From the NCBI GenBank assembly GCA_964510165.1, contig CAZEBC010000026.1:1-29956 (forward strand): 29,956 nt of DNA, written 5' to 3'. The number at the start of each line of letters is the position of its first letter. The stretch's first letter is position 1. Shown in pieces: positions 3,159 to 25,950 of the stretch. The DNA comes from an uncultured bacterium (lineage in GTDB: Bacteria > Abyssobacteria > SURF-5). The translations under genes and the position numbers were made by a program. The notes below the pieces were generated by a model that saw nothing but the letters and a program-made list of their open reading frames with translations, did no database searches and was not told where the DNA came from.

Positions 3159-3187
3159 TCGAAGAGGCTGAGGCCAAAAGCGAAGTC

Positions 3188-4213: not shown

Positions 4214-4242
4214 GCGCCTCGGCTCAACTCACAAGGGATTCC

Positions 4243-11724: not shown

Positions 11725-11825
11725 TTTCCTCGAACGGTGCGAAGGATTCCTTCCTGGCAGCCGTTTCTTCTTATCTTATTGCATCCGCATATGTTACACA
11801 GTGAAAGCTTCGCCCCAAAATCGAG

Positions 11826-11840
11826 TGGCATGATATGTGC
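11826..11840 (+). promoter_or_regulatory. sigma54 -24/-12 promoter of the activator gene
   Basis: TGGCATGATATGTGC = GG-N10-GC. Confidence 0.65.
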
Positions 11841-11901
11841 CTTACCAGACTCCATGCAACAAACCAGGTTCACATCGTTTTTCACCGGAAATGGGAGCAT
11901 C

Positions 11902-13357: not shown

Positions 13358-13912
13358 TCAGGCGCGGGCGGCTTCCTTCCCCGCGTCCAGATATATCTCT
13401 TCCCAGGAACCATCAGGTATCCCCAGCTTATCAATGAGCATCGAGGCCGACGGGTTTAAATGGAACTGATTGGGCCTGTCGGGCCCGACGAGGACGACCG
13501 GCGCATTGAACCTGTACGCGAACTCCTCGATGGGGATGTTGCCGAAGGTGATTCCCCGCTCGAGGTGCGGGATCACCAGTAACTGGTATTCGCGGTTCAT
13601 GAGGCAGGTTCTGAGTTCCTTTGCGTGTCGGCTCTCTTCACAGACCTTGAACCCGACATCAACGTACTCGCCCAGGCACTTGTCGTAGTACTCGCGCAGC
13701 TTGCGGTCGGTCGCGATCAGGATTTTGTCATCCATCTTGCGTCCCTGGCCGGGCGGATCGGAGTATTTCTCATACGGGGACCTGAGGAAGTAGAAGATGT
13801 TGAGCTGACACTTGTTTTTCTGGGCCAGAGAAAACGCGAAGTCGAACGCCCAGTCTCCCTTCTCCGAAAAATGGGCGCACAGCCCGATGCTGTCAAGTCC
13901 GATGGTTGTCAT
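13358..13912 (-). CDS. Universal stress protein-like protein
   Basis: USP-like layout: IGLCAHFSEKGDWAFDFAFSLA...QLNIFYF, YQLLVI, APVVLV; strong SD AGGAGGAG. Confidence 0.6.
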   Translation of the reverse strand: MTTIGLDSIGLCAHFSEKGDWAFDFAFSLAQKNKCQLNIFYFLRSPYEKYSDPPGQGRKMDDKILIATDRKLREYYDKCLGEYVDVGFKVCEESRHAKELRTCLMNREYQLLVIPHLERGITFGNIPIEEFAYRFNAPVVLVGPDRPNQFHLNPSASMLIDKLGIPDGSWEEIYLDAGKEAARA

Positions 13913-13942: not shown

Positions 13943-14890
13943 TCAAATTTCCTTGAGAATCTCATCTATGTAGTACTTGGAGTACAGCGCACTGACCGGA
14001 TTGTTCGCGAGCGACTTGTCTTTTACGAACAGCGTCGAGGTCGGGGCTTTGCTGTGCCGGACAAAGATCAAATCGCATCCCACGCACAATCCGACCAGCA
14101 CGTTGATATCGGGTTCGAGCTCATTCAATATGTGTGCCTGGCCGATAGGATTGCACAGCACCCCGCGCGACGCGGTGATGAGGTCGGCCTCAATCCGGCC
14201 CCCCACCTTGCAGCACACCGAACTGACCGCGAAAAACCTGCGCAACAGTCGCACAAGTATCTCGGTTTCTCGAAACATCTCCACGCAGAACGCGACGCCG
14301 ACATGCTTGTATTCCATGCCAAGGCAGTAATAGATGAACTCGGCCACGCGACACAATCTCCGGTGAGTTTCCGCCGCGATATCAGTCGTCACCTCCATGG
14401 AATGATGGAACTCGTTATACTTTTCGGCGGAGAAGAGTTCCCCGAAGTCGCCCGTGCATGTCTCTCCCTTCAAGCACCTGCGGTCCACGCATTCGACACA
14501 GTCTATGGTTGGCTTGCACATCTCGCCCTCAGGATGTTTGGTCGGGGTCTGGCTGCGCCCCCTTGCGTCGTTCAATCCGAATCCGTTGTGCAACCTTCCG
14601 TTCCTCAATGCGACAAGAGCCTCATCGACCTCCGCCGCAACGTCGTGAACCACTCTGATGCCGTATGAGCCGGCCCGATTCTCAAATTCCTTGTCCATCG
14701 CGCCGCACACAAACAGGTCGACCTCGAGATCCGCAAGCTGAGAGAGCCGCTCTTCCTCCGTCATGCCCGCCGTCTCCACGATTCTTCGTGAGACTTCCTG
14801 GTTGTCAGCAAGCTGGACAAGCAGGGTCTTATCCGAATAAGACCATCGCGGAGAAACTCGCGTACCAAACAGCGGAACTGCTACCTTCAC
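13943..14890 (-). CDS. NifB/NifX (Orange-protein-like) domain fused to DUF1847 Cys-rich metal-binding domain
   Basis: N-terminal KVAVPLFGTRVSPRW...LFVCGA; C-terminal CVECVDRRC, RLCRVAEF, GVAFC, SVCCKVG, CNPIGQA, GLCVGCD, VKDK. Confidence 0.8.
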   Translation of the reverse strand: MKVAVPLFGTRVSPRWSYSDKTLLVQLADNQEVSRRIVETAGMTEEERLSQLADLEVDLFVCGAMDKEFENRAGSYGIRVVHDVAAEVDEALVALRNGRLHNGFGLNDARGRSQTPTKHPEGEMCKPTIDCVECVDRRCLKGETCTGDFGELFSAEKYNEFHHSMEVTTDIAAETHRRLCRVAEFIYYCLGMEYKHVGVAFCVEMFRETEILVRLLRRFFAVSSVCCKVGGRIEADLITASRGVLCNPIGQAHILNELEPDINVLVGLCVGCDLIFVRHSKAPTSTLFVKDKSLANNPVSALYSKYYIDEILKEI

Positions 14891-14945
14891 GATTCAATTC
14901 CCGGTGGCTCAGCGAGCGCACGCTGCGAAGAGCCGATTGTTCGAT

Positions 14946-15006
14946 TGAATTCGCATCTGCCATTCTGCAAAGTACGAGTGAATTCGCATCAGCGATTCCG
15001 CAAAGT
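14946..15006. repeat. Tandem imperfect direct repeat, 28 bp x2, 33-bp period
   Basis: TGAATTCGCATCTGCCATTCTGCAAAGT (14946-14973) and TGAATTCGCATCAGCGATTCCGCAAAGT (14979-15006), 25/28 identical. Confidence 0.85.
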
Positions 15007-15012
15007 GTCAGG

Positions 15013-15027
15013 GCAAGTACTGTGCCA
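15013..15027 (-). promoter_or_regulatory. sigma54 promoter (leftward)
   Basis: TGGCAC-AGTAC-TTGC, full consensus. Confidence 0.85.
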
Positions 15028-15288
15028 AGGGGGACGCCTCGAACCGTGCTGAGGCGCGGCCCGACAGTTTGCCTGAGTTTTGCGGCATTCCGGCCAGTCG
15101 TCGGTCCGGCGCGGACATCGCCCGAAATGTTGCGGCCACAGTTGCGCGCAACGTCGCGTTGCGAGCCTTCGCGTCGTTCTGCGACGACGAAACACATTGG
15201 TATCGGCGCATGACGCATCGCGGCAAATGCCATGTTTCTCGATAATATCGTTTGATGTTTGAGGGCGCCGATTCACTGCCGGCCGTGA

Positions 15289-15303
15289 TGGCACAGTTCT
15301 TGC
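15289..15303 (+). promoter_or_regulatory. sigma54 promoter (rightward, qrc-tmc-hmc operon)
   Basis: TGGCAC-AGTTC-TTGC, full consensus. Confidence 0.85.
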
Positions 15304-15385
15304 CAAAACTCTCCAACGGAAGTGATGTGGAAAGCGCGCCACCAGCGTCGCGCTCTCAATGAGAAATTAAGTGAGACCGCCATTG

Positions 15386-16024
15386 ATGAAACCCGAAAAG
15401 AACTCAAACGGCCAGAAATATTTCGGAACCGTGGTCGGCTTCTTTTCGTTCGGACTCGTGCTTTTCCTCCTGTTGGGATGGTTCTTGTTACCCGGTTTGA
15501 GCTACGTCAAGAGCACGCAGCCGGTGAATTACAATCCCCCGCTTCACGTGGAGAGGCTCGGCATCACCTGCGACACATGCCACTTCTTCCATGAGGACGG
15601 GAGCTGGGCCGGAATCCCCACGCTTGAAACATGCATTGATTGTCACGAAAATACGATTGGCGACTCGTCTGAAGAAAAGAAGTTCGTCGAGAATTACGTG
15701 AAGGAAAATCGTGAGCCGCAGTGGGCGCTTTACATCAAGCAGCCCGAGTGCGTGTCGTTCTCGCATTCCTCGCACGTGCGGATGGCGAAGATTGCGTGTG
15801 AAACGTGTCATGGCCCGCAAGGCCATTCGGACGCCGCCGAGTATCTCGCGAACCGCATCACCAAGTATGGTTATGTGGTGTATGATCCGCGCGTTCCGCT
15901 GAATGCCTTCACCATCATGAGCGAGAAGGGCAGGAACGTGTGGGGCACGATGCGGATGGACGAATGCGCGGCATGTCACAGGGCGCGCGGAACGAGCACG
16001 GCCTGTTTCATCTGTCACAAATAG
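15386..16024 (+). CDS. qrcA: Menaquinone reductase multiheme cytochrome c subunit QrcA (5 CxxCH)
   Basis: N-terminal TM; CDTCH, CIDCH, CETCH, CAACH, CFICH; QPECVSFSHSSH; first of a qrcABCD-type set. Alternative start GTG 15371. Confidence 0.88.
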   Translation: MKPEKNSNGQKYFGTVVGFFSFGLVLFLLLGWFLLPGLSYVKSTQPVNYNPPLHVERLGITCDTCHFFHEDGSWAGIPTLETCIDCHENTIGDSSEEKKFVENYVKENREPQWALYIKQPECVSFSHSSHVRMAKIACETCHGPQGHSDAAEYLANRITKYGYVVYDPRVPLNAFTIMSEKGRNVWGTMRMDECAACHRARGTSTACFICHK

Positions 16025-16036
16025 GGACTCGCTGGA

Positions 16037-18430
16037 ATGTCTTGGTTTAAGGAAAAAGCAACCGTAAAAGTTGACCGGAGGACGTTCGTCAAAGGGATGA
16101 CCTTTGCGGGAGGAGCGGCTCTCGGCCTGATGCTCTCGCCGACGCCCTGGTACCTCATGCGAGACGCCGCGTTCTGGACACAGAACTGGGCGTGGCTGCC
16201 GACGCCTTCTCCGGGCGCGCCCTCGTTCGAGGACGCCGTCTGCGGGCTATGCGAGGCCGGATGCGGCATCCGCGTGAGAAAGGTGGACGATCGCCTCGTC
16301 AGGATCGACGGCAACAAGAACCACCCCGTCAACCGAGGCTCGGTCTGTCCGCTCGGGGTCGCTTCGCTCCAGTTGTTGTACAGTCCGGCTCGCATCAAGA
16401 CTCCGATGAAACGAGTGGACGGTTCCTGGCGGCCCGTCTCGTGGGAAATCGCCATAAGAGAGATCAGCCAGCAAATACAAAGCCTCAGGGCGACCGGGCA
16501 ATCCCATGCGATCGCATGCATCACCAACCATCGTAACAGCGCGATAAACCGGATGCTCGAACGGCTGCTCCGCGCTGTCGGGTCCCCCAATTTCGTGCCC
16601 ATGAACAACGGTGTGGACGCCCAGAATATCGTTCACCAACTCATGACCGGCGGGAGCACTGCCGCATATGATATCGAAAACGCCCGCTGCATCCTGAGTT
16701 TCGGATGCAGCCTCTTTGAGGGATGGGGAGCGCCCGGCCGGATGTATCACGCACAGGCGACGTGGCTCAAGAGGCCGAAAGAGTCGCAGGTTGAGGTGAT
16801 TCAGATCGAGCCTAATCTCTCGACCACCGCGAACAAAGCGTCCCAATGGGCGCCAATCACGCCGGGGACCGAGGCCGCGCTCGCCCTTGCAATCGCTCAC
16901 GTGTTGATCAGAGACGAACTCTACAACAAGGCTTTTGTGAAAAAGCACTGTTTCGGCTTCGAGGATTGGACGGACTCGTCCGGCAAGACACACAAGGGCT
17001 TTGCATCCGAGGTGCTCGCGCGGTATTCGCCGCAATCCGTCGAACTCATCACGAAAGTGCCGGCGAGTGAGACGGAAGATATCGCGCGCAGGTTCGCCTC
17101 GAATGGGCCTTCGCTTGCAATCGGCGGCGCAGGTCGGGGAGAAAGGTTTGCCGACCTGTACGCGCTGATGGCCGTCAACAGCCTGAATGCGCTGGTCGGC
17201 AATATCGGTCAGGTCGGCGGCCTTTTCACTCAGGCGGCGGCGCCAGTCAGTCCGCTTCCGCCCGTCACGATGGACGAAGAATCGGCGCGCGGCAACGCGA
17301 CGGCCCGCTGCGACGGAGCGGGAAGCGGGCGGTATCCATTCAGCCCGTCTCTGCCACACAATCTCGATCCGCAAAAAATCAAAGTCTTGTTCATCCATGA
17401 GGCAAACCCGTACTATGCGCTTCGTGACCGAAAATCGGCGGATGGTATTTTCGAGAAAATCCCCTATGTCGTAAGCCTGGCGTCCCACATGGATGAGAGC
17501 GCACAGCGAGCGAACCTGGTCCTCCCTGTGCCAACCCCATTCGAGAGGTGGGACGACCTTGCCGGTGTCACCGGAGTGCCGTATGCGACGTACGGCGTGA
17601 ACCGTCCTCTGATAACCCCCTTGCACGATGCGAGGAACGCAGGCGACATCGCGATAATGATCGCGCGTTCAATGGGCGGCGCGATCTCGGACTCTTTCCC
17701 GTGGAACAACACCGCTGAGGTCGTGGCGGCGCGGGCCAGAGGACTGTACGAATCCGATCGGGGCATGATAAATGAGCCCGTTGACATCGTCTCCTCCGAA
17801 GGGAAGCCCCCGCGGTCGCTCCAGGAAAAATACCCGACATTTTCGACGTTCTGGAGCAGCCTGCTTGCGAACGGCTGCTGGTTCGACCCGGCATTCGAGC
17901 GTGGCAAGTCATCCTTCAGCACGCCGAGCAAGAAGTTCGAGTTCTTCAGCCAGCGACTTCACAAAGAGTTCGGTTTCAGCGACGACCTGAAATGCATGCC
18001 CCACTACATGAAGCCAGCCGCAAAGCCCATAGGCTTTGACCTGACCATTATGCCGGAGGAACTGGTGGCGATGGCGCACGACGGTCTCGGCACGCCTCCC
18101 TTGCTCATCAAGCAACTCAGCGACACGGTGCTCCGCGAGAGCGAGCTATTCGTTCGGATCAATCCGATAACCGCCATGCATCACGGCGTCAAGGACGGGG
18201 ACAAGGTGATCCTGGAATCATCCCGTGGCAAAGTGAGCGTGCGGGTGCACACCTTTGCGGGAGTGCATGAAGGAATAGTGCTGATTCCCCTGGACTTCGG
18301 GCATACAGGGTACGACCGCTACCTGCAAAACAAGGGCGTGAACGCGCGCCAGTTGCTCGAAGTCGCGTATGACGACATCACGGGGTTGGCCTCTTGTTGC
18401 GGTACTCCGGGAAAGATCAGAAAAGCCTAA
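16037..18430 (+). CDS. qrcB: Menaquinone reductase molybdopterin-oxidoreductase-like subunit QrcB
   Basis: Tat RRTFVK, SPTPWYLMRDAAFWTQNW, CGLCEAGC...CPLG, C-terminal MopB-CT-like RINP...DFGH. Confidence 0.88.
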   Translation: MSWFKEKATVKVDRRTFVKGMTFAGGAALGLMLSPTPWYLMRDAAFWTQNWAWLPTPSPGAPSFEDAVCGLCEAGCGIRVRKVDDRLVRIDGNKNHPVNRGSVCPLGVASLQLLYSPARIKTPMKRVDGSWRPVSWEIAIREISQQIQSLRATGQSHAIACITNHRNSAINRMLERLLRAVGSPNFVPMNNGVDAQNIVHQLMTGGSTAAYDIENARCILSFGCSLFEGWGAPGRMYHAQATWLKRPKESQVEVIQIEPNLSTTANKASQWAPITPGTEAALALAIAHVLIRDELYNKAFVKKHCFGFEDWTDSSGKTHKGFASEVLARYSPQSVELITKVPASETEDIARRFASNGPSLAIGGAGRGERFADLYALMAVNSLNALVGNIGQVGGLFTQAAAPVSPLPPVTMDEESARGNATARCDGAGSGRYPFSPSLPHNLDPQKIKVLFIHEANPYYALRDRKSADGIFEKIPYVVSLASHMDESAQRANLVLPVPTPFERWDDLAGVTGVPYATYGVNRPLITPLHDARNAGDIAIMIARSMGGAISDSFPWNNTAEVVAARARGLYESDRGMINEPVDIVSSEGKPPRSLQEKYPTFSTFWSSLLANGCWFDPAFERGKSSFSTPSKKFEFFSQRLHKEFGFSDDLKCMPHYMKPAAKPIGFDLTIMPEELVAMAHDGLGTPPLLIKQLSDTVLRESELFVRINPITAMHHGVKDGDKVILESSRGKVSVRVHTFAGVHEGIVLIPLDFGHTGYDRYLQNKGVNARQLLEVAYDDITGLASCCGTPGKIRKA

Positions 18431-18435
18431 GCACG

Positions 18436-19185
18436 ATGAACACGAGCGTGGAAAAGCAAACACTTGTCCGGTACGGCATGGTCATAGATTTGGATACATG
18501 CACTGGCTGCGGCAACTGCGCCGTCGCCTGCCACATGGAAAACAATGTCCCATTCCGCGTTGACGAGAGCGACAAGTCGCGCAACATCGAATGGCTACGC
18601 ATTTACAGGGTCGACAACGGCGCCGAGTATCCGCATGCGCGCATGGCGTATTTCCCCAGGCCTTGCATGCAGTGCGACCACCATACCCCCTGCGTTTCCG
18701 TCTGCCCGGCGAGCGCCACGAACTATGACGAGCTTACCGGAGTGGTGGATCAAATAAACACCCGCTGCATAGGATGCCGTTATTGCATGGCGGCGTGTCC
18801 GTATATGGTCCGCTGTTTCAACTGGTGGGACCCCGTTTGGCCGAAGGAAATGGAGAGGCACCTGAACCCTGACGTTGCCGTGCGCATGCGGGGCGTCGTC
18901 GAGAAGTGCACCTTCTGTTCGCATCGCTATCTGAAAGCCAAGAACAAGGCACACAACGAGGGCCGCAACTATCTCAAGGAAGACGAATATGTGCCCGCGT
19001 GCGTCGAGGCCTGCCCCGTTGGGGCAATGCATTTCGGCGATCTCAGCAATCCCGAACATGAGGTCGCACGGTTGATCAAAAGCCCGCGCGCATTCCGGCT
19101 GCTTGAGAAACTGCACACCGAGCCGAAGGTCTATTACATGAGTTCGCAGGAATGGGTCAGGAAACTCGCGGACAATCCTGCATGA
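18436..19185 (+). CDS. qrcC: Menaquinone reductase iron-sulfur subunit QrcC
   Basis: YGMVIDLDTCTGCGNCAVAC, PCMQC...CVSVCP, CIGCRYCMAACP, RMRGVVEKCTFC, PACVEACP. Confidence 0.9.
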   Translation: MNTSVEKQTLVRYGMVIDLDTCTGCGNCAVACHMENNVPFRVDESDKSRNIEWLRIYRVDNGAEYPHARMAYFPRPCMQCDHHTPCVSVCPASATNYDELTGVVDQINTRCIGCRYCMAACPYMVRCFNWWDPVWPKEMERHLNPDVAVRMRGVVEKCTFCSHRYLKAKNKAHNEGRNYLKEDEYVPACVEACPVGAMHFGDLSNPEHEVARLIKSPRAFRLLEKLHTEPKVYYMSSQEWVRKLADNPA

Positions 19186-19203
19186 ACGATGTGCCCGTGC
19201 GGC

Positions 19204-19243
19204 GGGCGGCCACTCGTGGCGAGCCACGCAGGGCCGCCCCTAC
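19204..19243 (-). repeat. GTAG-family REP-like hairpin between qrcC and qrcD
   Basis: Minus strand GTAGGGGCGGCCCTGCGTGGCTCGCCACGAGTGGCCGCCC; outer stem GGGCGGCC/GGCCGCCC, inner CGTGGC/GCCACG. Confidence 0.7.
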
Positions 19244-19272
19244 ACCTAATCTGAAAGGAAGAGGCCGATCGG

Positions 19273-20502
19273 ATGTCTGGCGAACATGAAATACCGAAAT
19301 TAGAGCGGTGTTCCCCGCGAAAGTTTGTGTTGTGGCTGAGCTTCTGGGGCTTGTTGCTTGCATGGGGCCTGTATGCCGCGTTCCTCTGCCTGTTCAAAGG
19401 ATTGAACCAGACCGGCATGAACAACTATTTTGTGTTCGGGCTGTGGATCACGGTGGACCTCGCCATCATCGCCCTCGGAGCCGGAGCGTTCTTCAGCGGA
19501 TTCCTATTCTATATCCTTAAGCTCGATTACCTGAAGGACCTGATAGGCGCCGCCGTGGTCATCGGATTTATCTGTTATAGCGGCGCAATCGGCATGCTGA
19601 CCATTGACATAGGCCAGCCGCTGCGCGGCTACTTCAGCTTCATGCATGCGAACGTGCATTCAATGCTGACCGAGGTCATTTTCTGCATCACGTGCTATCT
19701 GTTCGTGTTGACCATCGAGTTTGTCCCGCTCGTTGCCGAGAACAAGACAATCAGTCAATTCCCCCTGTTCAAATATGTAGGCGAGAATCTGCATGGAATC
19801 ATGGCCGTGTTTGCGCTCGTCGGGACTTTCCTCTCCTTCTTTCATCAAGGGTCGCTCGGAGGAATGTTCGGCGTCCTGTTCGCGCGACCGTTCTCATACC
19901 GGACCGGCGTCGCCATCTGGCCTTGGACATTCTTCCTGTTCATCTTGTCGGCAATCGCATCGGGACCGGCGCTGACCACCCTTGTCGTTTGGACTACCCA
20001 GAAGCTCACGCGGCGACAACTCGTCCGACGGTCCACGCTTTCGAAACTCGCGAAGTTGTCCGCCGTGCTGTTTGCCGTCTATCTGGTGCTCAAGTCGGCC
20101 GATACGGTGTATTGGGCGAACGTGACCGCACCCGCGAAGGGGTTCAATTTCACCGCGTTCTACAAAGGTCCCTACGGGATGGAACTGCTGTTCCTCGAGC
20201 TGTTCGTGTTCGGAATAGTCCCGGCGGTCCTGCTCCTGATTCCGCGGGCGCGCGATTATGACCTGTCACTTGTCACCGGTTGTTTGTTCATATGTCTTGG
20301 TGTCGTCTTGAACCGCTTTGTGATGACGATACAGACGCTTTCGATACCCGTGCTCCCGTTCGAGCGGTTCGTCGCCTACGACCCCACATGGCAGGAATGG
20401 GCTATTGCGGTTGCAGTCATCGGATACGGAGTCATCGTGTATTCACTATCGTATCGTTACTTGCATCTGTTTCCGCGTGAAAAGGAACTCAACGCGACTT
20501 GA
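19273..20502 (+). CDS. qrcD: Menaquinone reductase integral membrane subunit QrcD (NrfD/PsrC family)
   Basis: FGLWITVDLAIIALGAGAF, DIGQPLR, HANVHSMLTEV, SFFHQGSLGG, LNRFV, YDPTWQEW. Confidence 0.92.
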   Translation: MSGEHEIPKLERCSPRKFVLWLSFWGLLLAWGLYAAFLCLFKGLNQTGMNNYFVFGLWITVDLAIIALGAGAFFSGFLFYILKLDYLKDLIGAAVVIGFICYSGAIGMLTIDIGQPLRGYFSFMHANVHSMLTEVIFCITCYLFVLTIEFVPLVAENKTISQFPLFKYVGENLHGIMAVFALVGTFLSFFHQGSLGGMFGVLFARPFSYRTGVAIWPWTFFLFILSAIASGPALTTLVVWTTQKLTRRQLVRRSTLSKLAKLSAVLFAVYLVLKSADTVYWANVTAPAKGFNFTAFYKGPYGMELLFLELFVFGIVPAVLLLIPRARDYDLSLVTGCLFICLGVVLNRFVMTIQTLSIPVLPFERFVAYDPTWQEWAIAVAVIGYGVIVYSLSYRYLHLFPREKELNAT

Positions 20503-20523
20503 AACCGGGGAGGTCGAGGCGCC

Positions 20524-20736
20524 ATGCTTCCGACAACGTTTGAATTCAGATGGGACGCGGGCCACATGATCTTCTTTGGCGTGTTCTACGCCGTTATCGC
20601 GGTCGTGATGACCAGCCTCTTTTTCGTCGTCGCGAAATCCGTGACCGATGTGTATCGGACATTGAGGTCCGAGCCGGAGGCCGGCCCAACCGAGAACAAG
20701 CGGCCTCAGCGAGCCGGGGTCAACCCCGAAACCTAA
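20524..20736 (+). CDS. Small single-TM protein downstream of qrcD
   Basis: 70 aa, FRWDAGHMIFFG then ~22 hydrophobic residues; SD GAGG; tight spacing inside the operon. Confidence 0.75.
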   Translation: MLPTTFEFRWDAGHMIFFGVFYAVIAVVMTSLFFVVAKSVTDVYRTLRSEPEAGPTENKRPQRAGVNPET

Positions 20737-20750
20737 AGGATACCAATAGT

Positions 20751-22061
20751 ATGGATGCTCACGTGCAGAACATGGAGACAACCTTGCAGAAAGTTGCCGC
20801 GTCCGAGCCCGGCTGGGACTGGGAAACAGACGAAAAGCTCGTCGCCGATATTTCTCAAATGAGAGAGCGCTTCCCGGAGGTCCATCAGTTTACGGTCAGC
20901 CCGGACGGCGAGAGGATCGCCGCGCCCGTCAAGACCGAGGACGGCCAATTCACTATATGCGTCAACGGCGAGCCATGGGAGCGGTCGTTCGAGAAGGCGT
21001 GGTATGTGAAGTTTAGCCCTGATGGCAGACTCACCGCCCTCGTTCGGGCGGATGACGCCTGGACCGTCGCCGTCGAGGGCGACCCCTGGGAGCAGACGTT
21101 CGAATACGTGTGGAACACCACCTTCAGCGAGGACGGCAGCACGGTTGCCGCTCAGTGCAAGCGCGAGATGGACTACGGCGTGATTGTCAACGGTCAGGCA
21201 TGGAGCAATACCTTTGTATCCACCAGGGGATTGGCCGTGAGCCCGAACGGCGAGAGAGTCGCCGCCGTCGTTCAGTCAAAGCCGCTCAAAGAGGCCGACA
21301 TCTTCGGATTCCTCGAGGGGACATGGACCGTCGCAGTCAATGACAAGGTCTGGGACCGCAACTTCATCAACGTCTATTCTCCTACTTTCAGCTCCGATGG
21401 ACGACATGTGGCGGCAGAGGTGAGACTCGGCATATGCGAATATACCGTCGCCAGGGACGGACAGCCATGGGAGCAGAGGTTCGGCTGCGTGTGGGAACCC
21501 GGTTTCAGGCCCCAGCGCGGCTCGGTGCTGGCCCCCGTCAGAACCGCAGGGAAATGGATTCTGGTTGAGGACGGGCGTCCGTTGTGGAGCGGCCGCTACG
21601 ACCAGTTGTGGAGACAGAAGGTCAGTCCCGATGGTCGCTCCATCGCAGCGGTGGCGGCGCCAACGTTCGGCAAGTGGACCATCACCGTTGATGACACCCC
21701 GTGGAAGAAGACCTATGACGAATGCGTCCTCGAACCGTTCTTCTCGCCCGACGGCAGGCACGTCGCCGCTATAGTCAAGGAACAGAACCGATGGACCATC
21801 GCAGTTGACGGCGCCCCGTGGAATGAGACGTTCGATATGGTGTGGAATCCCGCGTTCAGTCCCGACGGCCAGACCGTTGTCGCCAAGGTCGAACGCGGCG
21901 GAGCCTTCACTGTCGCGGTGAATGGCAAGCTGTGGAACAGAAAATTCGAGATGCTCTGGGAGCCTGTGTTCAGCCCTGACGGCACAAAGGCGCTGATCAA
22001 GGCGGTCGAGGACGGCGTCTATTACCGCCGAATCGTCAGGATAAATGAACTGCCGGCATAA
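20751..22061 (+). CDS. tmcD: Tmc complex subunit TmcD (Trp-rich beta-propeller)
   Basis: WDWE start, repeated FSPDG...WTVAVDGxPW blades; precedes tmcC-tmcB; SD AAAGGA. Confidence 0.85.
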   Translation: MDAHVQNMETTLQKVAASEPGWDWETDEKLVADISQMRERFPEVHQFTVSPDGERIAAPVKTEDGQFTICVNGEPWERSFEKAWYVKFSPDGRLTALVRADDAWTVAVEGDPWEQTFEYVWNTTFSEDGSTVAAQCKREMDYGVIVNGQAWSNTFVSTRGLAVSPNGERVAAVVQSKPLKEADIFGFLEGTWTVAVNDKVWDRNFINVYSPTFSSDGRHVAAEVRLGICEYTVARDGQPWEQRFGCVWEPGFRPQRGSVLAPVRTAGKWILVEDGRPLWSGRYDQLWRQKVSPDGRSIAAVAAPTFGKWTITVDDTPWKKTYDECVLEPFFSPDGRHVAAIVKEQNRWTIAVDGAPWNETFDMVWNPAFSPDGQTVVAKVERGGAFTVAVNGKLWNRKFEMLWEPVFSPDGTKALIKAVEDGVYYRRIVRINELPA

Positions 22062-22081
22062 GTGAGTGAGGAGAGCCGAAC

Positions 22082-22729
22082 ATGTACGAGTTCGTAAGCG
22101 GACCGCTTGTCTGGGTAGCGTTCCTCGTGTTCTTCGGCGGGTCTCTTTACCGCCTCATCTGGATGGCGTCAACTGCGAGGAAAGACAGGGTCGTCTACCC
22201 CTACATGAGCCTGAAATTCGGACTGAGGTCCATCTTGCACTGGATAATCCCCTTCGCCAACGTGAGCATGCGGAAACAGCCGGTGATGACGGCGGTCGCG
22301 TTCATCTTTCACCTCTGCCTGTTAATCACGCCGATTTTCCTGTTGGCGCACAACGTGATGCTGCGCGAATCATGGGGAATCAAGTGGTGGAGCCTGCCGC
22401 CGATCGCCGCCGATATCATGACGGTGGCCGTTGTCATCGGAGGCCTGTTCTTCATCGGAAGGAGATTGCGCCTGCCTGAAGTGAAGAACGTCACTACCTA
22501 TTCTGATTTCCTGCTGATCGCATTAGTGCTTGCGCCGTTTGTGACGGGCTTCATCGCCTATCATCAGTGGTTCGCTTACAAGACTATGGTGATTCTCCAC
22601 ATCGTGACCGGTGCGCTCATGCTGATGGCTATCCCCTTCACGCGGCTGGCGCATATGCTGTTCTTCCTTTTCACGCGAGCGTACATGGGCTCTGAGTTCG
22701 GTTTCGTCAGACATTCGAGAGACTGGTAG
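22082..22729 (+). CDS. tmcC: Tmc membrane cytochrome b subunit TmcC (NarI-like)
   Basis: MYEFVSGPLVW, His pairs FIFH..LAH and ILH..LAH, PFTRLAHM, GSEFG. Confidence 0.88.
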   Translation: MYEFVSGPLVWVAFLVFFGGSLYRLIWMASTARKDRVVYPYMSLKFGLRSILHWIIPFANVSMRKQPVMTAVAFIFHLCLLITPIFLLAHNVMLRESWGIKWWSLPPIAADIMTVAVVIGGLFFIGRRLRLPEVKNVTTYSDFLLIALVLAPFVTGFIAYHQWFAYKTMVILHIVTGALMLMAIPFTRLAHMLFFLFTRAYMGSEFGFVRHSRDW

Positions 22730-22759
22730 ACCGGAGCCTTGAAATGGAGGTTGTGTCGC

Positions 22760-24142
22760 ATGGCCGAAAATAATAAGAGCCAGGCCGTTATCGAGCCGGT
22801 TGCGGAACACGCGGCCAGGAAACTGACTCCGGAACAAATGGTAAAGGACCCGGGGCTGGACGAAACGATCAAGAAGCTCAGTCTCGAACAGATCGAGCGA
22901 ACCATAAATCAGGTGCTCAAAGGTGAGGGCGCACGCCTCAAGGTATACCTGGACACGTGCGTTCACTGCGGCCTGTGCTCCGAGGCCTGCCACACGTTCC
23001 TCTCACGCGGCAGAGACCCGCACTATTCACCCGTCGGCAAGGTGAAAAATACATTATGGGAGATGGTCAAGCGAAAGGGAAAGGTCGACCACGAATTCAT
23101 CCGGAACGCCTCTCGAATCGCGTTCACCGAATGCGCCGTGTGCCGCCGTTGCAGCATGTATTGCCCGTTCGGGATCGATATCGCGTACCTCCTCATCGTC
23201 GTGCGCCGCATTCTCAACTTCCTTTACGTGGTGCCCGCATACCTTCAGGACACCACGAACAGCCACGCAGTCACCATGAACCAGATGTGGGTGCAGCAGG
23301 ACGAATGGATCGACACCCTCCAGTGGCAGGAGGAAGAGGCGCAGATGGAGATGCCCAAGGCGAAGATTCCCCTCGACAAGGAGGGCGCCGAGGTCATGTA
23401 TTCGGTCATCGCGCCCGAACCCAAAATCCTCGCCCAGCTCCTCGCGTATATGGCGCAGATTATGACCGTCGCCGGCGTCGATTGGACCATGCCGGCCACC
23501 GACGGATGGGACAACAGCAACATGGCCATGTACTCGGGCGATTTCGAGACGATGGCGCGCGTGGAGCGCCTCTTCTATGACACCGCCCTGCGCCTTAAGG
23601 TAAAGAAGATCGTGATGGGCGAGTGCGGACACGCATTCCGGGGCGCCGCTTACGACGGCCCAAAATGGCTGTCGTGGCGGTTCCCGCCCATCCCGCTCAT
23701 TCACGCCATCGAATGGTATTACGAACTGCTCACCAGCGGAAAAATCAAGATCGCCAAAAAATTCACCGAACCCGTGACCGTGCAGGACCCCTGCAATGTG
23801 GTCCGCGGCAGGGGACTCCATCACATGCTGCGTTACATCATGAACGCCTTGTGCGAGGATTTCAGGGACGTGGACCCCAGGTTCGAGCACAACTATTGCT
23901 GCATGGCTGGCGGCGGAACCGTCAACTGCGGACCGCCTTGGACCAAGTCGAGGGTGACGAGTAATCGGGTAAAGGCGGACCAGCTCAAGGCCACCGGCGC
24001 CAAATACGTGGTCACTCCTTGCCACAACTGTCACAGCGGCATCGAGCAGATCATCAATTTCTACAAGCTCGGCATCCACGTGAAGTTCATAGCCGAAATC
24101 TTGATCGAATGCATGGAAATTCCTCAGCACCTGAAAGCGTAA
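22760..24142 (+). CDS. tmcB: Tmc cytoplasmic Fe-S subunit TmcB (HdrD/DsrK-like, CCG domain)
   Basis: CVHCGLCSEAC, CAVCRRCSMYCPFGID, GECGH, DPCN...CCMAGGG...PCHNC; SD GGAGG before ATG 22760. Confidence 0.88.
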   Translation: MAENNKSQAVIEPVAEHAARKLTPEQMVKDPGLDETIKKLSLEQIERTINQVLKGEGARLKVYLDTCVHCGLCSEACHTFLSRGRDPHYSPVGKVKNTLWEMVKRKGKVDHEFIRNASRIAFTECAVCRRCSMYCPFGIDIAYLLIVVRRILNFLYVVPAYLQDTTNSHAVTMNQMWVQQDEWIDTLQWQEEEAQMEMPKAKIPLDKEGAEVMYSVIAPEPKILAQLLAYMAQIMTVAGVDWTMPATDGWDNSNMAMYSGDFETMARVERLFYDTALRLKVKKIVMGECGHAFRGAAYDGPKWLSWRFPPIPLIHAIEWYYELLTSGKIKIAKKFTEPVTVQDPCNVVRGRGLHHMLRYIMNALCEDFRDVDPRFEHNYCCMAGGGTVNCGPPWTKSRVTSNRVKADQLKATGAKYVVTPCHNCHSGIEQIINFYKLGIHVKFIAEILIECMEIPQHLKA

Positions 24143-24146
24143 AGGG

Positions 24147-25706
24147 ATGAAGAAAATGCGACGTCAATGGATAATCAGCCTCCTCGGAATGCTTGCTTGT
24201 TCAGCCCCTCTGTTCGTCGGCGCCGGCTGCGGGCAACCGGCAGAAGGAATTTCTATGCCGGCGAATAAAGCCGCATCCGAACCGCCGCCCCAAACCCTCA
24301 TCGAGTCGCGCGTCCTGATGGCTCGGCCCGAAGTGTTCGATACGTTTGAACGGCCGCCCGTTGTCTTCGACCATCGAAAACATACCGAAACGCTCAGCGA
24401 GGAAGGCTGTCAAACCTGCCACCCTGCCGATGCTGAGGGAAAAGTCAATTATGAATATGTGGCATGGCGCGAACTGGCCGACAGGCGCGCGTTGATAGAC
24501 GCCTATCACGAAAGATGCAACCAGTGCCATTACGAAGGTGCAACAAGCGGAGGCAAGAAGGTCCGCGCGCTCACCTGCGGCGAATGCCACCTCGATACGA
24601 CCGAGTATCTCAAGCCCGAATGGTATCCGGCCACCTTCGACCATTTTCCGCATATCGCCGCCATGGAGAAAGGTTGCGACACCTGTCACCACAGGTACGA
24701 CGAACAACAGAAGAAGCTGGTGTATGAGAAGGGACAGGAAGAATCCTGCGGCAATTGCCACAAGGACACGCCTGAAGAGAACAGGGACCCGCTCCGCAAG
24801 GTCGGCCACACCGGCTGCATCGGTTGCCACGAGAAGGAATACCTCGCGGGAAATAAGGAAATCGACCCGTACTCCTGTAACGAATGTCATCGGCCCGAGG
24901 CAAAACCCAGTGTGCCGGACGAGCGGGAAATGGTGGCCCGCGTGTATCAGGCCAATCCCGGCCAACTCCTCATCAGCTATCCCGGCGCGATTTTGCCGCC
25001 CGTCGCCTTCGACCACGAAAAGCACGACCCGAAGCAGGAATGCGCGAAGTGCTGTCACAACTTCCACGTGAGAACGCTCGTCGCCATGGACATGCGCTTC
25101 AAGCAGACTTCCGACTCCTGCCAGCAATGTCACGAAAAGGCCGACATCTCAGTGAGGCCAGGCTGCGTTCAGGCCGACAAGATTTACCACGACCCCGAAT
25201 CGCCCAACAGTTGCATCGGGTGTCACACTCAGAAAAACAAGGAAGACGGAGAGGAGAAGAGGCCCGTGAGCTGCAAGGGATGCCATAAAGGCACCCTCAG
25301 CGCCGCTCCCAGACCCGTTGCAATGGAACCCCTCGACGCCGAAAAGGGGCCGGAGACCTATGTCATCGCCCGGCTCTCAAGAAAATATCTTCCCGTCAAG
25401 TTCCCGCACCTTCAACACACGAAGATGATCCCGGACTGCCAGTCCTGCCATCACCACGGACCGGAAAAACAGATGCCCACATGCAACACCTGCCACGGCG
25501 AGCCGCTCGACTTCATGAAACTCACCAAGCCGCGGCTCATCAGCGCCTATCACCGCATGTGCATGGGCTGCCATAGAGACATGGGAACGGGGCCGGTCAC
25601 TTGCGCCAAGTGCCACGAGGAACGAGAAACCATCTATCCCTCAAGCCAACACCTGACGACATCTGTGACGCCCGCGGAAGCAGTTGTATTGGAAGAGAAG
25701 CTCTGA
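24147..25706 (+). CDS. hmcA: High-molecular-weight cytochrome c3-type protein, HmcA-like, 15 heme motifs
   Basis: 14 CxxCH plus CAKCCH arranged 3+4+4+4; HmcA-like segments CHHRYDEQQKKLVY..EESC and AYHRMCMGCH; signal peptide with possible lipobox Cys. Confidence 0.8.
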   Translation: MKKMRRQWIISLLGMLACSAPLFVGAGCGQPAEGISMPANKAASEPPPQTLIESRVLMARPEVFDTFERPPVVFDHRKHTETLSEEGCQTCHPADAEGKVNYEYVAWRELADRRALIDAYHERCNQCHYEGATSGGKKVRALTCGECHLDTTEYLKPEWYPATFDHFPHIAAMEKGCDTCHHRYDEQQKKLVYEKGQEESCGNCHKDTPEENRDPLRKVGHTGCIGCHEKEYLAGNKEIDPYSCNECHRPEAKPSVPDEREMVARVYQANPGQLLISYPGAILPPVAFDHEKHDPKQECAKCCHNFHVRTLVAMDMRFKQTSDSCQQCHEKADISVRPGCVQADKIYHDPESPNSCIGCHTQKNKEDGEEKRPVSCKGCHKGTLSAAPRPVAMEPLDAEKGPETYVIARLSRKYLPVKFPHLQHTKMIPDCQSCHHHGPEKQMPTCNTCHGEPLDFMKLTKPRLISAYHRMCMGCHRDMGTGPVTCAKCHEERETIYPSSQHLTTSVTPAEAVVLEEKL

Positions 25707-25775: not shown

Positions 25776-25865
25776 GATTGATTCTTCTTGAGTCAAGTCT
25801 CGCTTGTGGCGGGGGTGAAAGCGCTCGCAATGATGGGGGGTCCACAAGTCCTTGTCTCTCAACGG

Positions 25866-25950
25866 TGCCGGAGGAGGGAATCGAACCCTCATGGTGCCAA
25901 GCACCGGGGGATTTTGAGTCCCCTGCGTCTACCAGTTCCACCACTCCGGC
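25866..25950 (-). tRNA. tRNA-Leu (anticodon CAA)
   Basis: Acceptor GCCGGAG/CTCCGGC, D-loop GGAACTGGTAGA, anticodon arm GGGGA-CTCAAAA-TCCCC, long variable arm, T-arm GAGGG-TTCGATT-CCCTC; discriminator A followed by CCG, so CCA is not fully encoded. Confidence 0.97.

What the first reader, a model, noticed from the sequence alone, without database searches (positions are those of the whole stretch)
15386..25706. Single sigma54 operon joining QrcABCD, TmcDCB and an HmcA-like cytochrome
Seen: nine co-oriented genes with gaps of 4-30 bp (87 bp at the REP) and no evident internal promoter. Known: in Desulfovibrio, Qrc (cytochrome c3:menaquinone), Tmc (tetraheme TmcA) and Hmc (16-heme HmcA) are separate loci, linked by soluble type I cytochrome c3. 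Inference: a self-contained conduit, possibly a supercomplex, in which the large cytochrome bridges the menaquinone pool (Qrc) and a cytoplasmic thiol/disulfide site (TmcB), under Fe-S redox control. This is most striking if the host lacks dsrAB.
Basis: partly seen in the sequence, partly recalled or inferred. Interest (0 to 1): 0.78.

Follow-up and report, generated by a model that had tools for sequence, protein, structure and literature searches.

The report
Joined Qrc–Tmc electron-transfer operon
Nine tightly packed genes behind one sigma-54 promoter combine two respiratory membrane complexes that sulfate reducers normally encode at separate loci (Qrc and Tmc) with an unusual 15-haem cytochrome and a new small membrane protein; the parts are known but this arrangement seems confined to one little-studied bacterial lineage.

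Summary
Nine co-oriented genes lie at 15386-25706: qrcA, qrcB, qrcC, qrcD, a 70-aa one-helix ORF, tmcD, tmcC, tmcB and a 519-aa multihaem cytochrome. Gaps are 4-30 bp, with one of 87 bp.

A TGGCAC-N5-TTGC sigma-54 element sits about 80 bp upstream of qrcA. It is identical in a related MAG.

The same gene order occurs in 2 of the 79 best TmcD loci out of 559 found: a Candidatus Abyssobacteria MAG and an unclassified one.

The order tmcD-C-B-cytochrome is the usual tmc order. What differs is that the tetrahaem TmcA is replaced by a 15-haem HmcA-like protein that scores below the HmcA cut-off.

On the TmcB tree, the nearest relatives carry tmcDCB-hmcABC(D). Here QrcABCD stands where HmcBC stand there.

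Best reading: one co-regulated unit sends periplasmic electrons both to menaquinone (Qrc) and across the membrane to a cytoplasmic DsrC-type disulfide (Tmc). A single supercomplex is possible but not shown.

"Fe-S redox control" is unsupported: the regulator is a PAS-domain enhancer-binding protein. The host's dsrAB status is unknown.

Verdict: a new variant of a known kind, of moderate interest.

The parts
11701..13242 (+). Sigma-54 enhancer-binding protein (PAS, AAA+ sigma-54 interaction domain, Fis-type HTH)
   Evidence: Pfam Sigma54_activat 217.5 bits, PAS_9 67.1, HTH_8 52.4. NCBIfam sigma-54 regulator models match. The same gene occupies the same place in L012, at 931-2304.
13358..13912 (-). 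Conserved 184-aa gene of unknown family, second gene of the divergent unit
   Evidence: No Pfam or NCBIfam match. An ORF of similar size sits in the same place in L012, at 2450-3049 (-); its similarity to the window gene was not tested.
13943..14890 (-). Cys-rich DUF1847 protein, transcribed divergently from its own sigma-54 element
   Evidence: Pfam DUF1847 119 bits; weak Nitro_FeMo-Co match, E 0.007. An ORF of similar size sits in the same place in L012, at 3046-4017 (-); its similarity to the window gene was not tested.
14939..15004 (.). Two tandem 33-nt direct repeats in the divergent control region
   Evidence: the repeat finder family D3, 85% identity. Poorly conserved in L012. Role unknown.
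15012..15027 (-). Sigma-54 -24/-12 element facing the DUF1847 gene
   Evidence: TGGCACAGTACTTGCC. The counterpart in L012 reads TGGCAT-N5-TTGC on the same strand.
15141..15152 (.). Palindrome GTTGCGCGCAAC between the two promoters; candidate activator binding site
   Evidence: Read. L012 has GTTGCATGCAAC at the aligned place. It lies about 140 bp upstream of the + element. Its function is inferred.
15289..15304 (+). Sigma-54 -24/-12 element of the nine-gene operon
   Evidence: TGGCACAGTTCTTGCC. It is 16/16 identical in L012 at 4447-4461, within otherwise diverged DNA.
15386..16024 (+). qrcA, membrane-anchored cytochrome c with 5 CxxCH motifs
   Evidence: NCBIfam QrcA 196.1 against a cut-off of 180. 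Motifs counted in the translation.
16037..18430 (+). qrcB, molybdopterin-oxidoreductase-like subunit with a twin-arginine signal
   Evidence: NCBIfam QrcB 435.9 / 440. Pfam Molybdopterin and Molybdop_Fe4S4 domains match. There is a gap where ArrA and PsrA carry the Cys in 'SVCAE'/'SLCTA'. A CxxCxxxC...C motif is kept.
18436..19185 (+). qrcC, four-cluster iron-sulfur subunit
   Evidence: NCBIfam QrcC 404.9 / 400; HmcB model only 61.5.
19205..19238 (+). GC-rich hairpin in the 87-bp qrcC-qrcD gap
   Evidence: -42.3 kcal/mol, z -3.0, 0 of 200 shuffles as stable. Single copy in the window. No T tract follows it. Absent from L012 and L007.
19273..20502 (+). qrcD, NrfD-type quinone-interacting membrane subunit
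   Evidence: NCBIfam QrcD 585.6 / 570; HmcC model only 92.9.
20524..20736 (+). Small ORF (70 aa) with one transmembrane helix; new conserved family
   Evidence: GGAGG lies 8 bp upstream. The N-terminal 45 residues are almost invariant across 24 sequences. It has 22 clusters of homologues. No Pfam or NCBIfam family matches, HmcD included. It lies between qrcD and tmcD in L012 and L007 too.
20751..22061 (+). tmcD, cytoplasmic Trp-rich beta-propeller-like protein
   Evidence: NCBIfam TmcD 560.2 / 440.
22082..22729 (+). tmcC, membrane cytochrome b subunit
   Evidence: NCBIfam TmcC 313.3 / 240; HmcE model 216 / 275.
22760..24142 (+). tmcB, cytoplasmic HdrD/DsrK-like iron-sulfur protein with a CCG domain
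   Evidence: NCBIfam TmcB 700.5 / 735; HmcF 396.5; DsrK 197.2. Pfam CCG and Fer4_8 match. A GECGH motif is present in the translation.
24147..25706 (+). HmcA-like cytochrome c with 15 haem motifs, probably a lipoprotein, in the TmcA position
   Evidence: 14 CxxCH plus 1 CxxxCH. Best solved relatives are HmcA structures 1GWS, 2E84 and 1H29, E about 1e-46. One HmcA haem motif is missing and the CxxxCH is conserved across the clade. A Cys at the signal-peptide end is present in 9 of 14 clade members.
25864..25950 (-). tRNA-Leu(CAA) on the opposite strand; marks the downstream end of the unit
   Evidence: ARAGORN; Rfam tRNA 52.7 bits.

Best explanation
This is a sigma-54-dependent nine-gene transcription unit in a bacterium related to Candidatus Abyssubacteria. 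It co-expresses two kinds of respiratory module.

(1) A QrcABCD-type menaquinone reductase.
(2) A Tmc-type transmembrane complex (TmcD, TmcC, TmcB). Its periplasmic cytochrome is not the usual tetrahaem TmcA but a lineage-specific 15-haem HmcA-like protein, probably lipid-anchored.
A new 70-aa membrane protein is encoded between the two sets.

Proposed working: electrons arriving in the periplasm enter the multihaem proteins (the 15-haem cytochrome and QrcA) and then take two routes.
- Through the QrcC iron-sulfur clusters to menaquinone at QrcD. In sulfate reducers this feeds Qmo and APS reductase.
- Through the haems b of TmcC to the CCG-domain protein TmcB, which reduces a cytoplasmic DsrC-type disulfide or trisulfide.

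A PAS-domain enhancer-binding protein switches on both this operon and a divergent two-gene unit from a shared control region.

Shown: gene content, order and spacing, the promoter motif and its conservation, conservation of the whole arrangement in related genomes, and the family features of each protein.
Inferred: co-transcription, the electron donors and acceptors, the direction of flow, and any physical association between the two sets.
For: Gene identities come from curated equivalog models, and L012 gives the same result. Spacing is 4-30 bp plus one gap of 87 bp.

There is one sigma-54 element upstream of qrcA, identical in L012. No further TGGYAY-N5-TTGCW match at up to 1 mismatch lies inside the operon. 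No excess of sigma-70-like or terminator-like sites occurs there.

The order sigma-54 activator / two divergent ORFs of matching size and place / qrcABCD / small ORF / tmcDCB / cytochrome is kept in L012. From qrcB onward it is kept in L007.

Homologues of the small ORF and of the cytochrome share contig lengths: 68731, 16570, 255430 and 21092 bp. This suggests the same linkage in four further assemblies.

QrcB has a gap at the position of the ArrA/PsrA active-site Cys, as expected for a cofactor-less QrcB (Duarte 2018, PMC6303296, passages).

TmcB keeps the CCG domain and the GECGH motif. That motif is discussed as probably essential in DsrK, HmcF and TmcB (PMC10861901, passages).

Genetics in Desulfovibrio alaskensis G20 found both Qrc and Tmc important during growth on hydrogen. 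Qrc feeds menaquinone and APS reduction, while Tmc feeds the sulfite-reduction pathway (PMC4215793, passages). This gives a plain reason to co-regulate the two.
Against: There are no transcript data, so co-transcription rests on spacing and motifs alone.

In L007 the gaps inside the tmc part are looser, at 121 and 231 bp. The window has a strong hairpin between qrcC and qrcD.

QrcB and TmcB score just below their curated cut-offs, and the cytochrome fails the HmcA cut-off.

The acceptor of TmcB is unknown here. The related SURF MAGs were reported to lack dsrAB and dsrD (PMC6121073, passages), so a DsrC-linked role is not assured.

Nothing in the window shows a periplasmic hydrogenase, a formate dehydrogenase or a soluble cytochrome c3.

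Only the 79 best of 559 TmcD loci were examined, and no loci were fetched starting from Qrc.
Confidence: 0.6

Rival explanations
1. All nine proteins form one Hmc-like supercomplex. QrcCD (with QrcAB) take the place of HmcBC, TmcCB take the place of HmcEF, the 15-haem protein takes the place of HmcA, and the small ORF takes the place of HmcD. Menaquinone chemistry and transmembrane electron transfer to a cytoplasmic disulfide would then be coupled within one machine, as is proposed for Hmc and DsrMKJOP.
For: On the TmcB tree the window, L012 and L007 form one clade (SH-aLRT 98). That clade lies inside a supported set of 8 rows (95). The other five rows carry tmcDCB followed by HmcA-type genes. 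In L003 and L027, HmcA, HmcB and HmcC all pass their cut-offs, and L027 also has HmcD. The Qrc genes therefore stand where the nearest relatives have the homologous NrfD/Fe-S pair of a single complex.

The small ORF follows the NrfD-type gene, as hmcD follows hmcC in L027.

Predicted QrcD-small ORF pairing gave weak support. The score was 0.32 against a best of 3 controls of 0.00. That mark was reached by 116 of 157 solved complexes and 2 of 215 mismatched pairs, but scores of 0.60 or under came from only 18 of those 157 and from both mismatches that passed. The runs agree in at least 65% of contacts and the partner's pLDDT is at least 59.

All nine genes share one promoter.
Against: No contact between any Qrc subunit and any Tmc subunit was tested. 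The small ORF is not a detectable HmcD homologue: no NCBIfam hit at E up to 0.01. Purified Qrc and Tmc from Desulfovibrio are separate complexes (from papers cited in the passages I read; I did not read those papers). The tree is unrooted and was built by the quick method, so 'replacement' is one reading of a sister relationship. Shared operons often encode separate complexes.
Confidence: 0.25
2. The adjacency is incidental. qrcABCD (with or without the small ORF) and tmcDCB-cytochrome are two units with an unrecognised internal promoter, brought together by rearrangement in one lineage.
For: The two sets are self-sufficient, known complexes elsewhere. L007 has larger gaps within the tmc part. 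The consensus scans cover only sigma-70 and sigma-54 types. In sister-group loci L001 and L005 a sigma-54 motif lies directly upstream of tmcD, so tmcD can head its own unit.
Against: In the window, qrcD to the small ORF is 21 bp and the small ORF to tmcD is 14 bp, with ribosome-binding sites and no room for a promoter outside coding sequence. No sigma-54 motif occurs there in the window or in L007, and L012 has only the one upstream of qrcA. The junction is kept in three independent assemblies that share only 66-68% TmcD identity with the window.
Confidence: 0.1
3. The unit does not serve sulfate or sulfite respiration. In a host without DsrAB it would carry electrons between the menaquinone pool, a periplasmic or extracellular partner reached through the 15-haem protein, and a cytoplasmic thiol/disulfide other than DsrC. 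Flow might run in the reverse (outward) direction.
For: The SURF Abyssubacteria MAGs were reported to have sat and aprAB but no dsrAB or dsrD (PMC6121073, passages). L012 is from one of them (record title). Tmc without TmcA has been read as adaptation to a different electron donor in syntrophic sulfate reducers (PMC10553843, passages). A large multihaem lipoprotein is suited to longer-range periplasmic transfer (inference).
Against: Other Abyssubacteria bins are reported to have DsrAB, AprAB, Sat and Qmo (PMC7887784 and PMC10580873, passages). The SURF_17 MAG is 91% complete (PMC6121073, abstract), so absence is not secure. TmcB keeps the motifs shared with DsrK. The genome of the window's organism could not be examined.
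Confidence: 0.15

Closest known systems
QrcABCD (type I cytochrome c3:menaquinone oxidoreductase of Desulfovibrio vulgaris)
   Same: All four subunits are present in the same order. QrcA, QrcC and QrcD pass the curated equivalog cut-offs. QrcB has a twin-arginine signal and lacks the Cys aligned with the ArrA/PsrA active-site Cys.
   Different: QrcB is 797 aa, keeps a CxxCxxxC...C motif and scores 435.9 against a cut-off of 440. QrcA has 5 haem motifs. A conserved 70-aa membrane ORF and the tmc genes follow in the same unit. It occurs outside Thermodesulfobacteriota, in Abyssubacteria-related MAGs.
TmcABCD (transmembrane complex of Desulfovibrio; gene order tmcD-C-B-A)
   Same: TmcD and TmcC pass their cut-offs. 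TmcB is the best model and keeps the CCG domain and GECGH motif. The order D-C-B-cytochrome matches 25 loci that have a 4-haem TmcA.
   Different: The periplasmic subunit is a 519-aa, 15-haem HmcA-like protein rather than a tetrahaem cytochrome of about 130 aa. The unit is headed by qrc genes and a sigma-54 promoter.
HmcABCDEF (high-molecular-weight cytochrome complex) and the tmcDCB-hmcABC(D) clusters found here in 25 of 79 loci
   Same: The overall parts list matches: a large c3-domain cytochrome, a four-cluster Fe-S protein, an NrfD-type membrane protein, a small membrane protein, a cytochrome b and a CCG protein. The nearest TmcB relatives come from such clusters.
   Different: The Fe-S and NrfD proteins are Qrc-type, not Hmc-type: HmcB model 61.5 / 420 and HmcC model 92.9 / 550. 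QrcA and QrcB are extra. The cytochrome lacks one HmcA haem and fails the cut-off. The small ORF is not HmcD.
DsrMKJOP
   Same: It has the same two-module logic: an NrfD/Fe-S/cytochrome c module on the periplasmic side, plus a cytochrome b/CCG module that reduces DsrC trisulfide (PMC10861901, passages).
   Different: The Dsr models score far below their cut-offs: DsrO 166 / 200, DsrP 46.7 / 350, DsrK 197 / 400. There is no DsrJ-type trihaem protein.

Membership tests
QrcABCD | Four genes qrcA-B-C-D, each matching its curated equivalog model | tested here: met
   QrcA 196.1 / 180, QrcC 404.9 / 400 and QrcD 585.6 / 570 pass. QrcB at 435.9 / 440 is just under, but it is by far the best model, the next being PhsA at 260.6. 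L012's QrcB passes at 460.2.
QrcABCD | QrcB is a molybdopterin-family protein without the Mo/W cofactor | tested here: inconclusive
   The alignments to ArrA (6CZ7) and PsrA (2VPW) put a gap at the Cys of 'SVCAE'/'SLCTA'. That this Cys is the metal ligand is recalled, not tested here. The cluster motif CxxCxxxC...C is retained. Cofactor content needs biochemistry.
QrcABCD | Cytochrome c3:menaquinone oxidoreductase activity | not testable with these tools
   This needs a biochemical assay.
TmcABCD | TmcB, TmcC and TmcD equivalogs in the order D-C-B | tested here: met
   TmcD 560.2 / 440 and TmcC 313.3 / 240 pass. TmcB at 700.5 / 735 is just under but is the best model, ahead of HmcF at 396.5. 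The order matches 25 canonical loci.
TmcABCD | Periplasmic subunit is the tetrahaem type II cytochrome c3 (TmcA) | tested here: not met
   The gene in that position encodes 519 aa with 15 haem motifs. The TmcA model is exceeded only because four c3-like stretches each match it.
TmcABCD | TmcB carries a CCG domain and the T/GECGH cysteine | tested here: met
   Pfam CCG 35 bits. GECGH is present in the translation. The motif's significance is taken from PMC10861901 (passages).
HmcABCDEF | 16-haem HmcA | tested here: not met
   There are 15 motifs, one of them CxxxCH. The motif present in three HmcA-type rows is absent from all 14 rows of this clade. HmcA model 241.8 / 400.
HmcABCDEF | HmcB, HmcC and HmcD subunits | tested here: not met
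   HmcB model 61.5 / 420 on QrcC and HmcC model 92.9 / 550 on QrcD. No HmcD match for the small ORF at E up to 0.01.
Sigma-54-dependent operon | A -24 GG / -12 GC element (TGGCAC-N5-TTGC) upstream of the first gene, with an enhancer-binding protein nearby | tested here: met
   The element lies at 15289-15304 and is conserved 16/16 in L012. A PAS-AAA+-HTH activator lies 2 kb upstream in both. Use of the promoter in vivo was not tested.

The most novel reading that the evidence does not exclude
The nine products assemble into a single Hmc-like respiratory supercomplex that arose by module exchange. In this reading QrcABCD replaced HmcBC(D), a 15-haem lipoprotein wires the Qrc and Tmc halves together, and the new small membrane protein is part of the membrane interface. 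Such a machine would join menaquinone reduction or oxidation to transmembrane reduction of a cytoplasmic DsrC-type disulfide in one unit. It would be a natural experiment on how the NrfD-type and CCG-type modules of DsrMKJOP and Hmc cooperate.
Probability: 0.25. Interest if true: 0.7.

Novelty: new variant of a known kind. Interest (0 to 1): 0.45.

Why it matters
Qrc, Tmc, Hmc and DsrMKJOP are built from a small set of interchangeable modules. How the quinone-facing NrfD/Fe-S module and the cytoplasm-facing cytochrome b/CCG module work together is still open; the role of DsrJOP is called an enigma in PMC10861901 (passages).

This lineage places a Qrc-type quinone module where its nearest relatives have the Hmc-type one. 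It adds a new small subunit and a shortened HmcA-like cytochrome. This offers a defined natural variant for testing whether these modules act as one machine or as two.

It also extends Qrc/Tmc-type respiration to Abyssubacteria-related bacteria, whose sulfur metabolism is disputed in the literature.

If the genes are merely co-regulated, the finding is a tidy example of packaging the two electron routes needed for sulfate reduction into one operon.

Tried and rejected
1. Is the small ORF HmcD? No NCBIfam hit at E up to 0.01 for the copies in the window, L012 or L007. No Pfam hit for the window copy.

2. Is the small ORF a general Tmc-associated gene? Among the 77 other loci, no similar hydrophobic small ORF lies just upstream of tmcD and there are no tblastn hits.

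3. Is the hairpin in the 87-bp gap a REP element? It occurs once in the window. It is not conserved in L012 or L007. It is not terminator-like, because no T tract follows it.

4. Internal promoters, terminators and RNA families. None exceed chance. Rfam found only the flanking tRNA.

5. Strict sigma-54 pattern TGGCAC-N5-TTGCW. It gave 0 matches because the sites end in TTGCC. The looser search found them.

6. Is QrcB a catalytic Psr/Phs/Arr-type enzyme? This was considered because PhsA and ArrA are the next-best matches. I set it aside because of the gap at the aligned active-site Cys, but biochemistry has not excluded it.

7. The two GcvH-like genes of L012. They are membrane-anchored but do not carry the small ORF's N-terminal motif.

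8. The comparative SRB genomics paper of Pereira et al. 2011 could not be read; it is not held. Whether it notes any qrc-tmc adjacency remains unchecked.

9. The literature searches listed no paper whose title, abstract or read passages describe a joined qrc-tmc operon. They cover open-access text only.

10. Input errors, corrected and re-sent: reference out of frame; search term too long.
Full report
WHAT IS THERE. The + strand between 15386 and 25706 carries nine ORFs. Curated NCBIfam models name eight of them:
- QrcA 196.1 bits (cut-off 180)
- QrcB 435.9 (440)
- QrcC 404.9 (400)
- QrcD 585.6 (570)
- TmcD 560.2 (440)
- TmcC 313.3 (240)
- TmcB 700.5 (735)
- a 519-aa cytochrome whose best model is HmcA, at 241.8 against a cut-off of 400.

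The ninth gene is a 70-aa ORF at 20524-20736, between qrcD and tmcD. It has a GGAGG ribosome-binding site and one hydrophobic helix. With the most likely starts, the gaps are 12, 5, 87, 21, 14, 20, 30 (or 9) and 4 bp.

PROMOTER AND REGULATOR. A sigma-54 type element, TGGCACAGTTCTTGCC, lies at 15289-15304, about 80 bp upstream of qrcA. A near-identical one lies at 15012-15027 on the other strand and faces a divergent DUF1847 gene. Three matches in 30 kb at up to one mismatch is what chance gives (2.23 expected), and the strict pattern ending in A/T found none. The count alone therefore proves nothing.

The stronger evidence is conservation. In the corresponding region of locus L012 the + element is identical at 16 of 16 positions while the surrounding DNA has diverged. 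The minus-strand element is retained there as TGGCAT-N5-TTGC. A palindrome midway between the two (GTTGCGCGCAAC here, GTTGCATGCAAC in L012) is also kept.

A PAS-AAA+-HTH sigma-54 activator is encoded 2 kb upstream in both loci. Within the operon, sigma-70-like sites (2 found, 4.6 expected) and terminator-like sites (11 found, 11.4 expected) are at chance level. Rfam finds nothing but the tRNA-Leu that closes the region.

The 87-bp qrcC-qrcD gap contains a very stable hairpin (-42.3 kcal/mol, z -3.0). It occurs once in the window, has no T tract, and is missing from the shorter gaps of L012 and L007. I see no basis for calling it REP, and it is not a conserved control element.

HOW COMMON THE ARRANGEMENT IS. 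A profile of TmcD (alignment A1) found 559 loci in one-genome-per-species contigs, and the best 79 were fetched. I compared the nine window proteins with these loci by tblastn.
- Only L012 (a MAG titled Candidatus Abyssobacteria bacterium SURF_17) and L007 (an unclassified MAG whose contig starts inside qrcB) have Qrc genes next to tmc. Both show the same order, including the small ORF and the large cytochrome.
- In the other 77 loci there is no QrcA, QrcB or small-ORF hit at all.
- The only QrcC- and QrcD-like hits in those loci are distant (at most 36% and 27% identity).
- 60 of the 77 have at least 1.5 kb upstream of tmcD, so a qrcD there would have been seen.

Homologues of the small ORF (22 clusters) and close homologues of the cytochrome (about 20 clusters at 46-100% identity, followed by a drop to 34% or less) are similarly few. 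Several share contig lengths (68731, 16570, 255430 and 21092 bp), which suggests the same linkage in further assemblies. I could not read those contigs.

Two of these homologues are named as Candidatus Abyssubacteria proteins. One is an 82%-identical cytochrome annotated 'high-molecular-weight cytochrome c'. The arrangement is thus real, since it appears in independent assemblies. It is conserved in one lineage and was not seen in the Thermodesulfobacteriota loci examined.

WHAT THE tmc HALF REALLY IS. The order tmcD-C-B is not reversed or odd.
- In 25 loci, mostly Desulfobacterales, it is followed by a 126-156-aa protein with four CxxCH motifs. This is TmcA, so D-C-B-A is the normal order.
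- In another 25 loci it is followed by an HmcA-type cytochrome. In 19 of these the ORF is intact, with 16 or 18 haem motifs. In 6 it is partial or broken.
- Those HmcA-type genes are usually followed by HmcB- and HmcC-like genes.

I checked four such loci with NCBIfam. In L003 and L027, HmcA, HmcB and HmcC all pass their cut-offs, and L027 also has HmcD. In L018 and L065, HmcA passes, while HmcB and HmcC are the best models but score below their cut-offs.

A maximum-likelihood tree of 57 TmcB proteins was built with the quick method, using SH-aLRT support only. TmcB was missing, truncated by a contig end or under 80% covered in the other 23 of the 80 rows. The tree puts the window, L012 and L007 in one clade (support 98). 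That clade sits inside a supported set of eight rows (95) whose other five members all come from tmcDCB-hmc clusters. The tetrahaem-TmcA loci form a separate supported group. The tree is unrooted. The safe statement is that the closest relatives of this Tmc module belong to clusters which have HmcA plus HmcBC(D) where this lineage has a modified HmcA-like protein plus, upstream, QrcABCD and the small ORF.

THE CYTOCHROME. Its best solved relatives are the 16-haem HmcA structures 1GWS, 2E84 and 1H29 (E about 1e-46). It has 14 CxxCH motifs and one CxxxCH.

In an alignment of 14 clade members with three HmcA-type proteins, 15 haem sites are invariant. The motif that follows the tenth site in the HmcA-type rows is absent from all 14 clade rows. 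The eighth site is CxxxCH throughout the clade, followed by an insertion of about 14 residues.

Nine of the 14 clade members, the window's protein among them, have a Cys at the end of the signal peptide in a lipobox-like context. A lipid anchor is therefore likely but not shown.

OTHER SUBUNITS.
- QrcB has a twin-arginine signal and keeps a CxxCxxxC...C cluster motif. Its alignments to ArrA and PsrA place a gap at the Cys of 'SVCAE'/'SLCTA'. That this Cys is the metal ligand is my recollection. The absence fits the cofactor-less QrcB described by Duarte et al. (PMC6303296, passages).
- TmcB has the CCG domain and a GECGH motif. That motif is discussed as probably essential for disulfide reduction in DsrK, HmcF and TmcB (PMC10861901, passages).
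- The small ORF's first 45 residues (MLPTTFEFRWDAGHMIFFG.FY...) are almost invariant in 24 sequences, while its tail varies freely. It matches no Pfam or NCBIfam family, HmcD included.
- A profile search of 1.84 billion representatives found 67 hits at E up to 1e-3. Among them are proteins of about 270 aa in which the same N-terminal helix is fused to a Cys-rich linker and a GcvH-like domain.
- A predicted pairing of the small ORF with QrcD gave weak support only. The score was 0.32 against a best of 3 controls of 0.00. That mark was reached by 116 of 157 solved complexes and 2 of 215 mismatches. Scores of 0.60 or under came from only 18 of those 157 and from both mismatches that passed. The runs agree in at least 65% of contacts and the partner's pLDDT is at least 59.

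HOW IT MOST LIKELY WORKS. In Desulfovibrio alaskensis G20 both Qrc and Tmc matter for growth on hydrogen. Qrc passes periplasmic electrons to menaquinone and on towards APS reduction. Tmc passes them across the membrane towards the sulfite-reduction pathway, perhaps DsrC (PMC4215793, passages). Encoding both routes, together with their own periplasmic multihaem entry point, behind one regulated promoter is the simplest reading, and I give it 0.6.

The alternative is that the nine proteins form one Hmc-like supercomplex. The module-for-module correspondence with the sister clusters and the position of the small ORF suggest this, but no Qrc-Tmc contact has been tested. I give it 0.25.

Incidental adjacency with a hidden internal promoter is unlikely, given 21- and 14-bp junctions kept in three assemblies (0.1).

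A role outside sulfate respiration stays open. The SURF Abyssubacteria MAGs were reported to have sat and aprAB but no dsrAB or dsrD (PMC6121073, passages). Other Abyssubacteria bins were reported to have DsrAB, AprAB, Sat and Qmo (PMC7887784 and PMC10580873, passages). The genome behind this window could not be inspected.

The description and the sigma-54 call are right. The rarity is real, within the limits of what I could scan. The 'TmcDCB' order is normal and the cytochrome stands in for TmcA. 'HmcA-like' is fair, but the protein has 15 haems and fails the HmcA cut-off. 'Fe-S redox control' has no support, because the regulator is a PAS-domain activator. 'Supercomplex' remains a hypothesis.

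NOVELTY. Searches of open-access text listed no paper whose title, abstract or read passages describe a joined qrc-tmc operon: qrcABCD with tmc; TmcD, HmcA and Qrc; Abyssubacteria with Qrc, 0 papers; qrcABCD, tmcABCD and 'same operon'; Qrc, Tmc, Hmc, Nhc and Ohc. I read passages of only some of the listed papers. The papers read in passages treat the two as separate loci (PMC5109826, PMC10553843). The main comparative paper on these complexes (Pereira et al. 2011) is not held, so prior mention cannot be excluded.

I rate this a new variant of a known kind, of moderate interest.

Noticed in passing
Loci L003, L014, L017, L018, L020, L027, L029, L032, L034, L040, L049, L050, L052-L054, L063, L065, L067, L076 (also L005, L015, L033, L047, L071, L075, where the cytochrome ORF is partial or broken): In 25 of 79 TmcD loci, tmcD-tmcC-tmcB is followed by a 16- or 18-haem HmcA, then HmcB- and HmcC-like genes, and HmcD in L027. 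This 'TmcD plus Hmc' hybrid cluster is common in Nitrospirota/Thermodesulfovibrionales and in MAGs labelled Acidobacteriota, Gemmatimonadota, Ignavibacteriota and GN15. I did not find it described in the passages I read.
   Followed up: partly
Proteins P0275, P0279, P0287, P0289, P0293, P0300, P0306, P0310: The conserved N-terminal helix of the small ORF (M-L/F-P-x-x-F/Y-E-F-x-W-D-x-G-H) recurs at the N-terminus of proteins of about 200-280 aa. In these it is followed by a Cys-rich linker and a GcvH-like (lipoyl-type) domain. Their genomic context could not be fetched.
   Followed up: partly
L012 15096-21311: Downstream of the operon in the Abyssobacteria MAG lie a PAS histidine kinase (also present after the cytochrome in L007), two membrane-anchored GcvH-like genes (17294-18058 and 18077-18853), a 239-aa ORF, and then HmcB-like and NrfD-like genes. 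The window has a tRNA-Leu and unrelated genes here instead.
   Followed up: partly
L001 1007-1021 and L005 9740-9754: TGGCAC-N5-TTGC motifs lie directly upstream of tmcD in two MAGs labelled Thermoanaerobaculia. One of them, L005, falls in the sister group of the window's TmcB. Sigma-54 control of tmc may therefore predate the joining with qrc.
   Followed up: no
L003 9367-9813 and L065 17603-17956: DVU0259-family single-domain response regulators flank the tmc-hmc clusters. The window's lineage uses a PAS sigma-54 activator instead.
   Followed up: no
window 14939-15004: Two tandem 33-nt repeats (85% identical) lie between the DUF1847 gene and its sigma-54 element. They are poorly conserved in L012. 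Their role is unknown.
   Followed up: partly
window 26000-27034 (-) and 27062-28102 (-): Two tandem genes of near-equal length (344 and 346 aa) and visibly similar sequence (not aligned) give only weak QueG-like and 4Fe-4S matches. An OYE-family flavoenzyme (28152-29240, -) and a TetR regulator (29299-29868, -) follow. This may be a separate reductase cluster.
   Followed up: no
window 1-4794: Housekeeping genes upstream: a DEDD exonuclease fragment, YebC, RuvC, RuvA, RuvB and QueH. This is ordinary chromosomal context, with no sign of a mobile element around the operon.
   Followed up: no
L050, L055, L067 (also L059, L073 with an extra tmcB): Some genomes carry two tmcDCB sets, or extra tmcB copies, within 10 kb of each other.
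   Followed up: no
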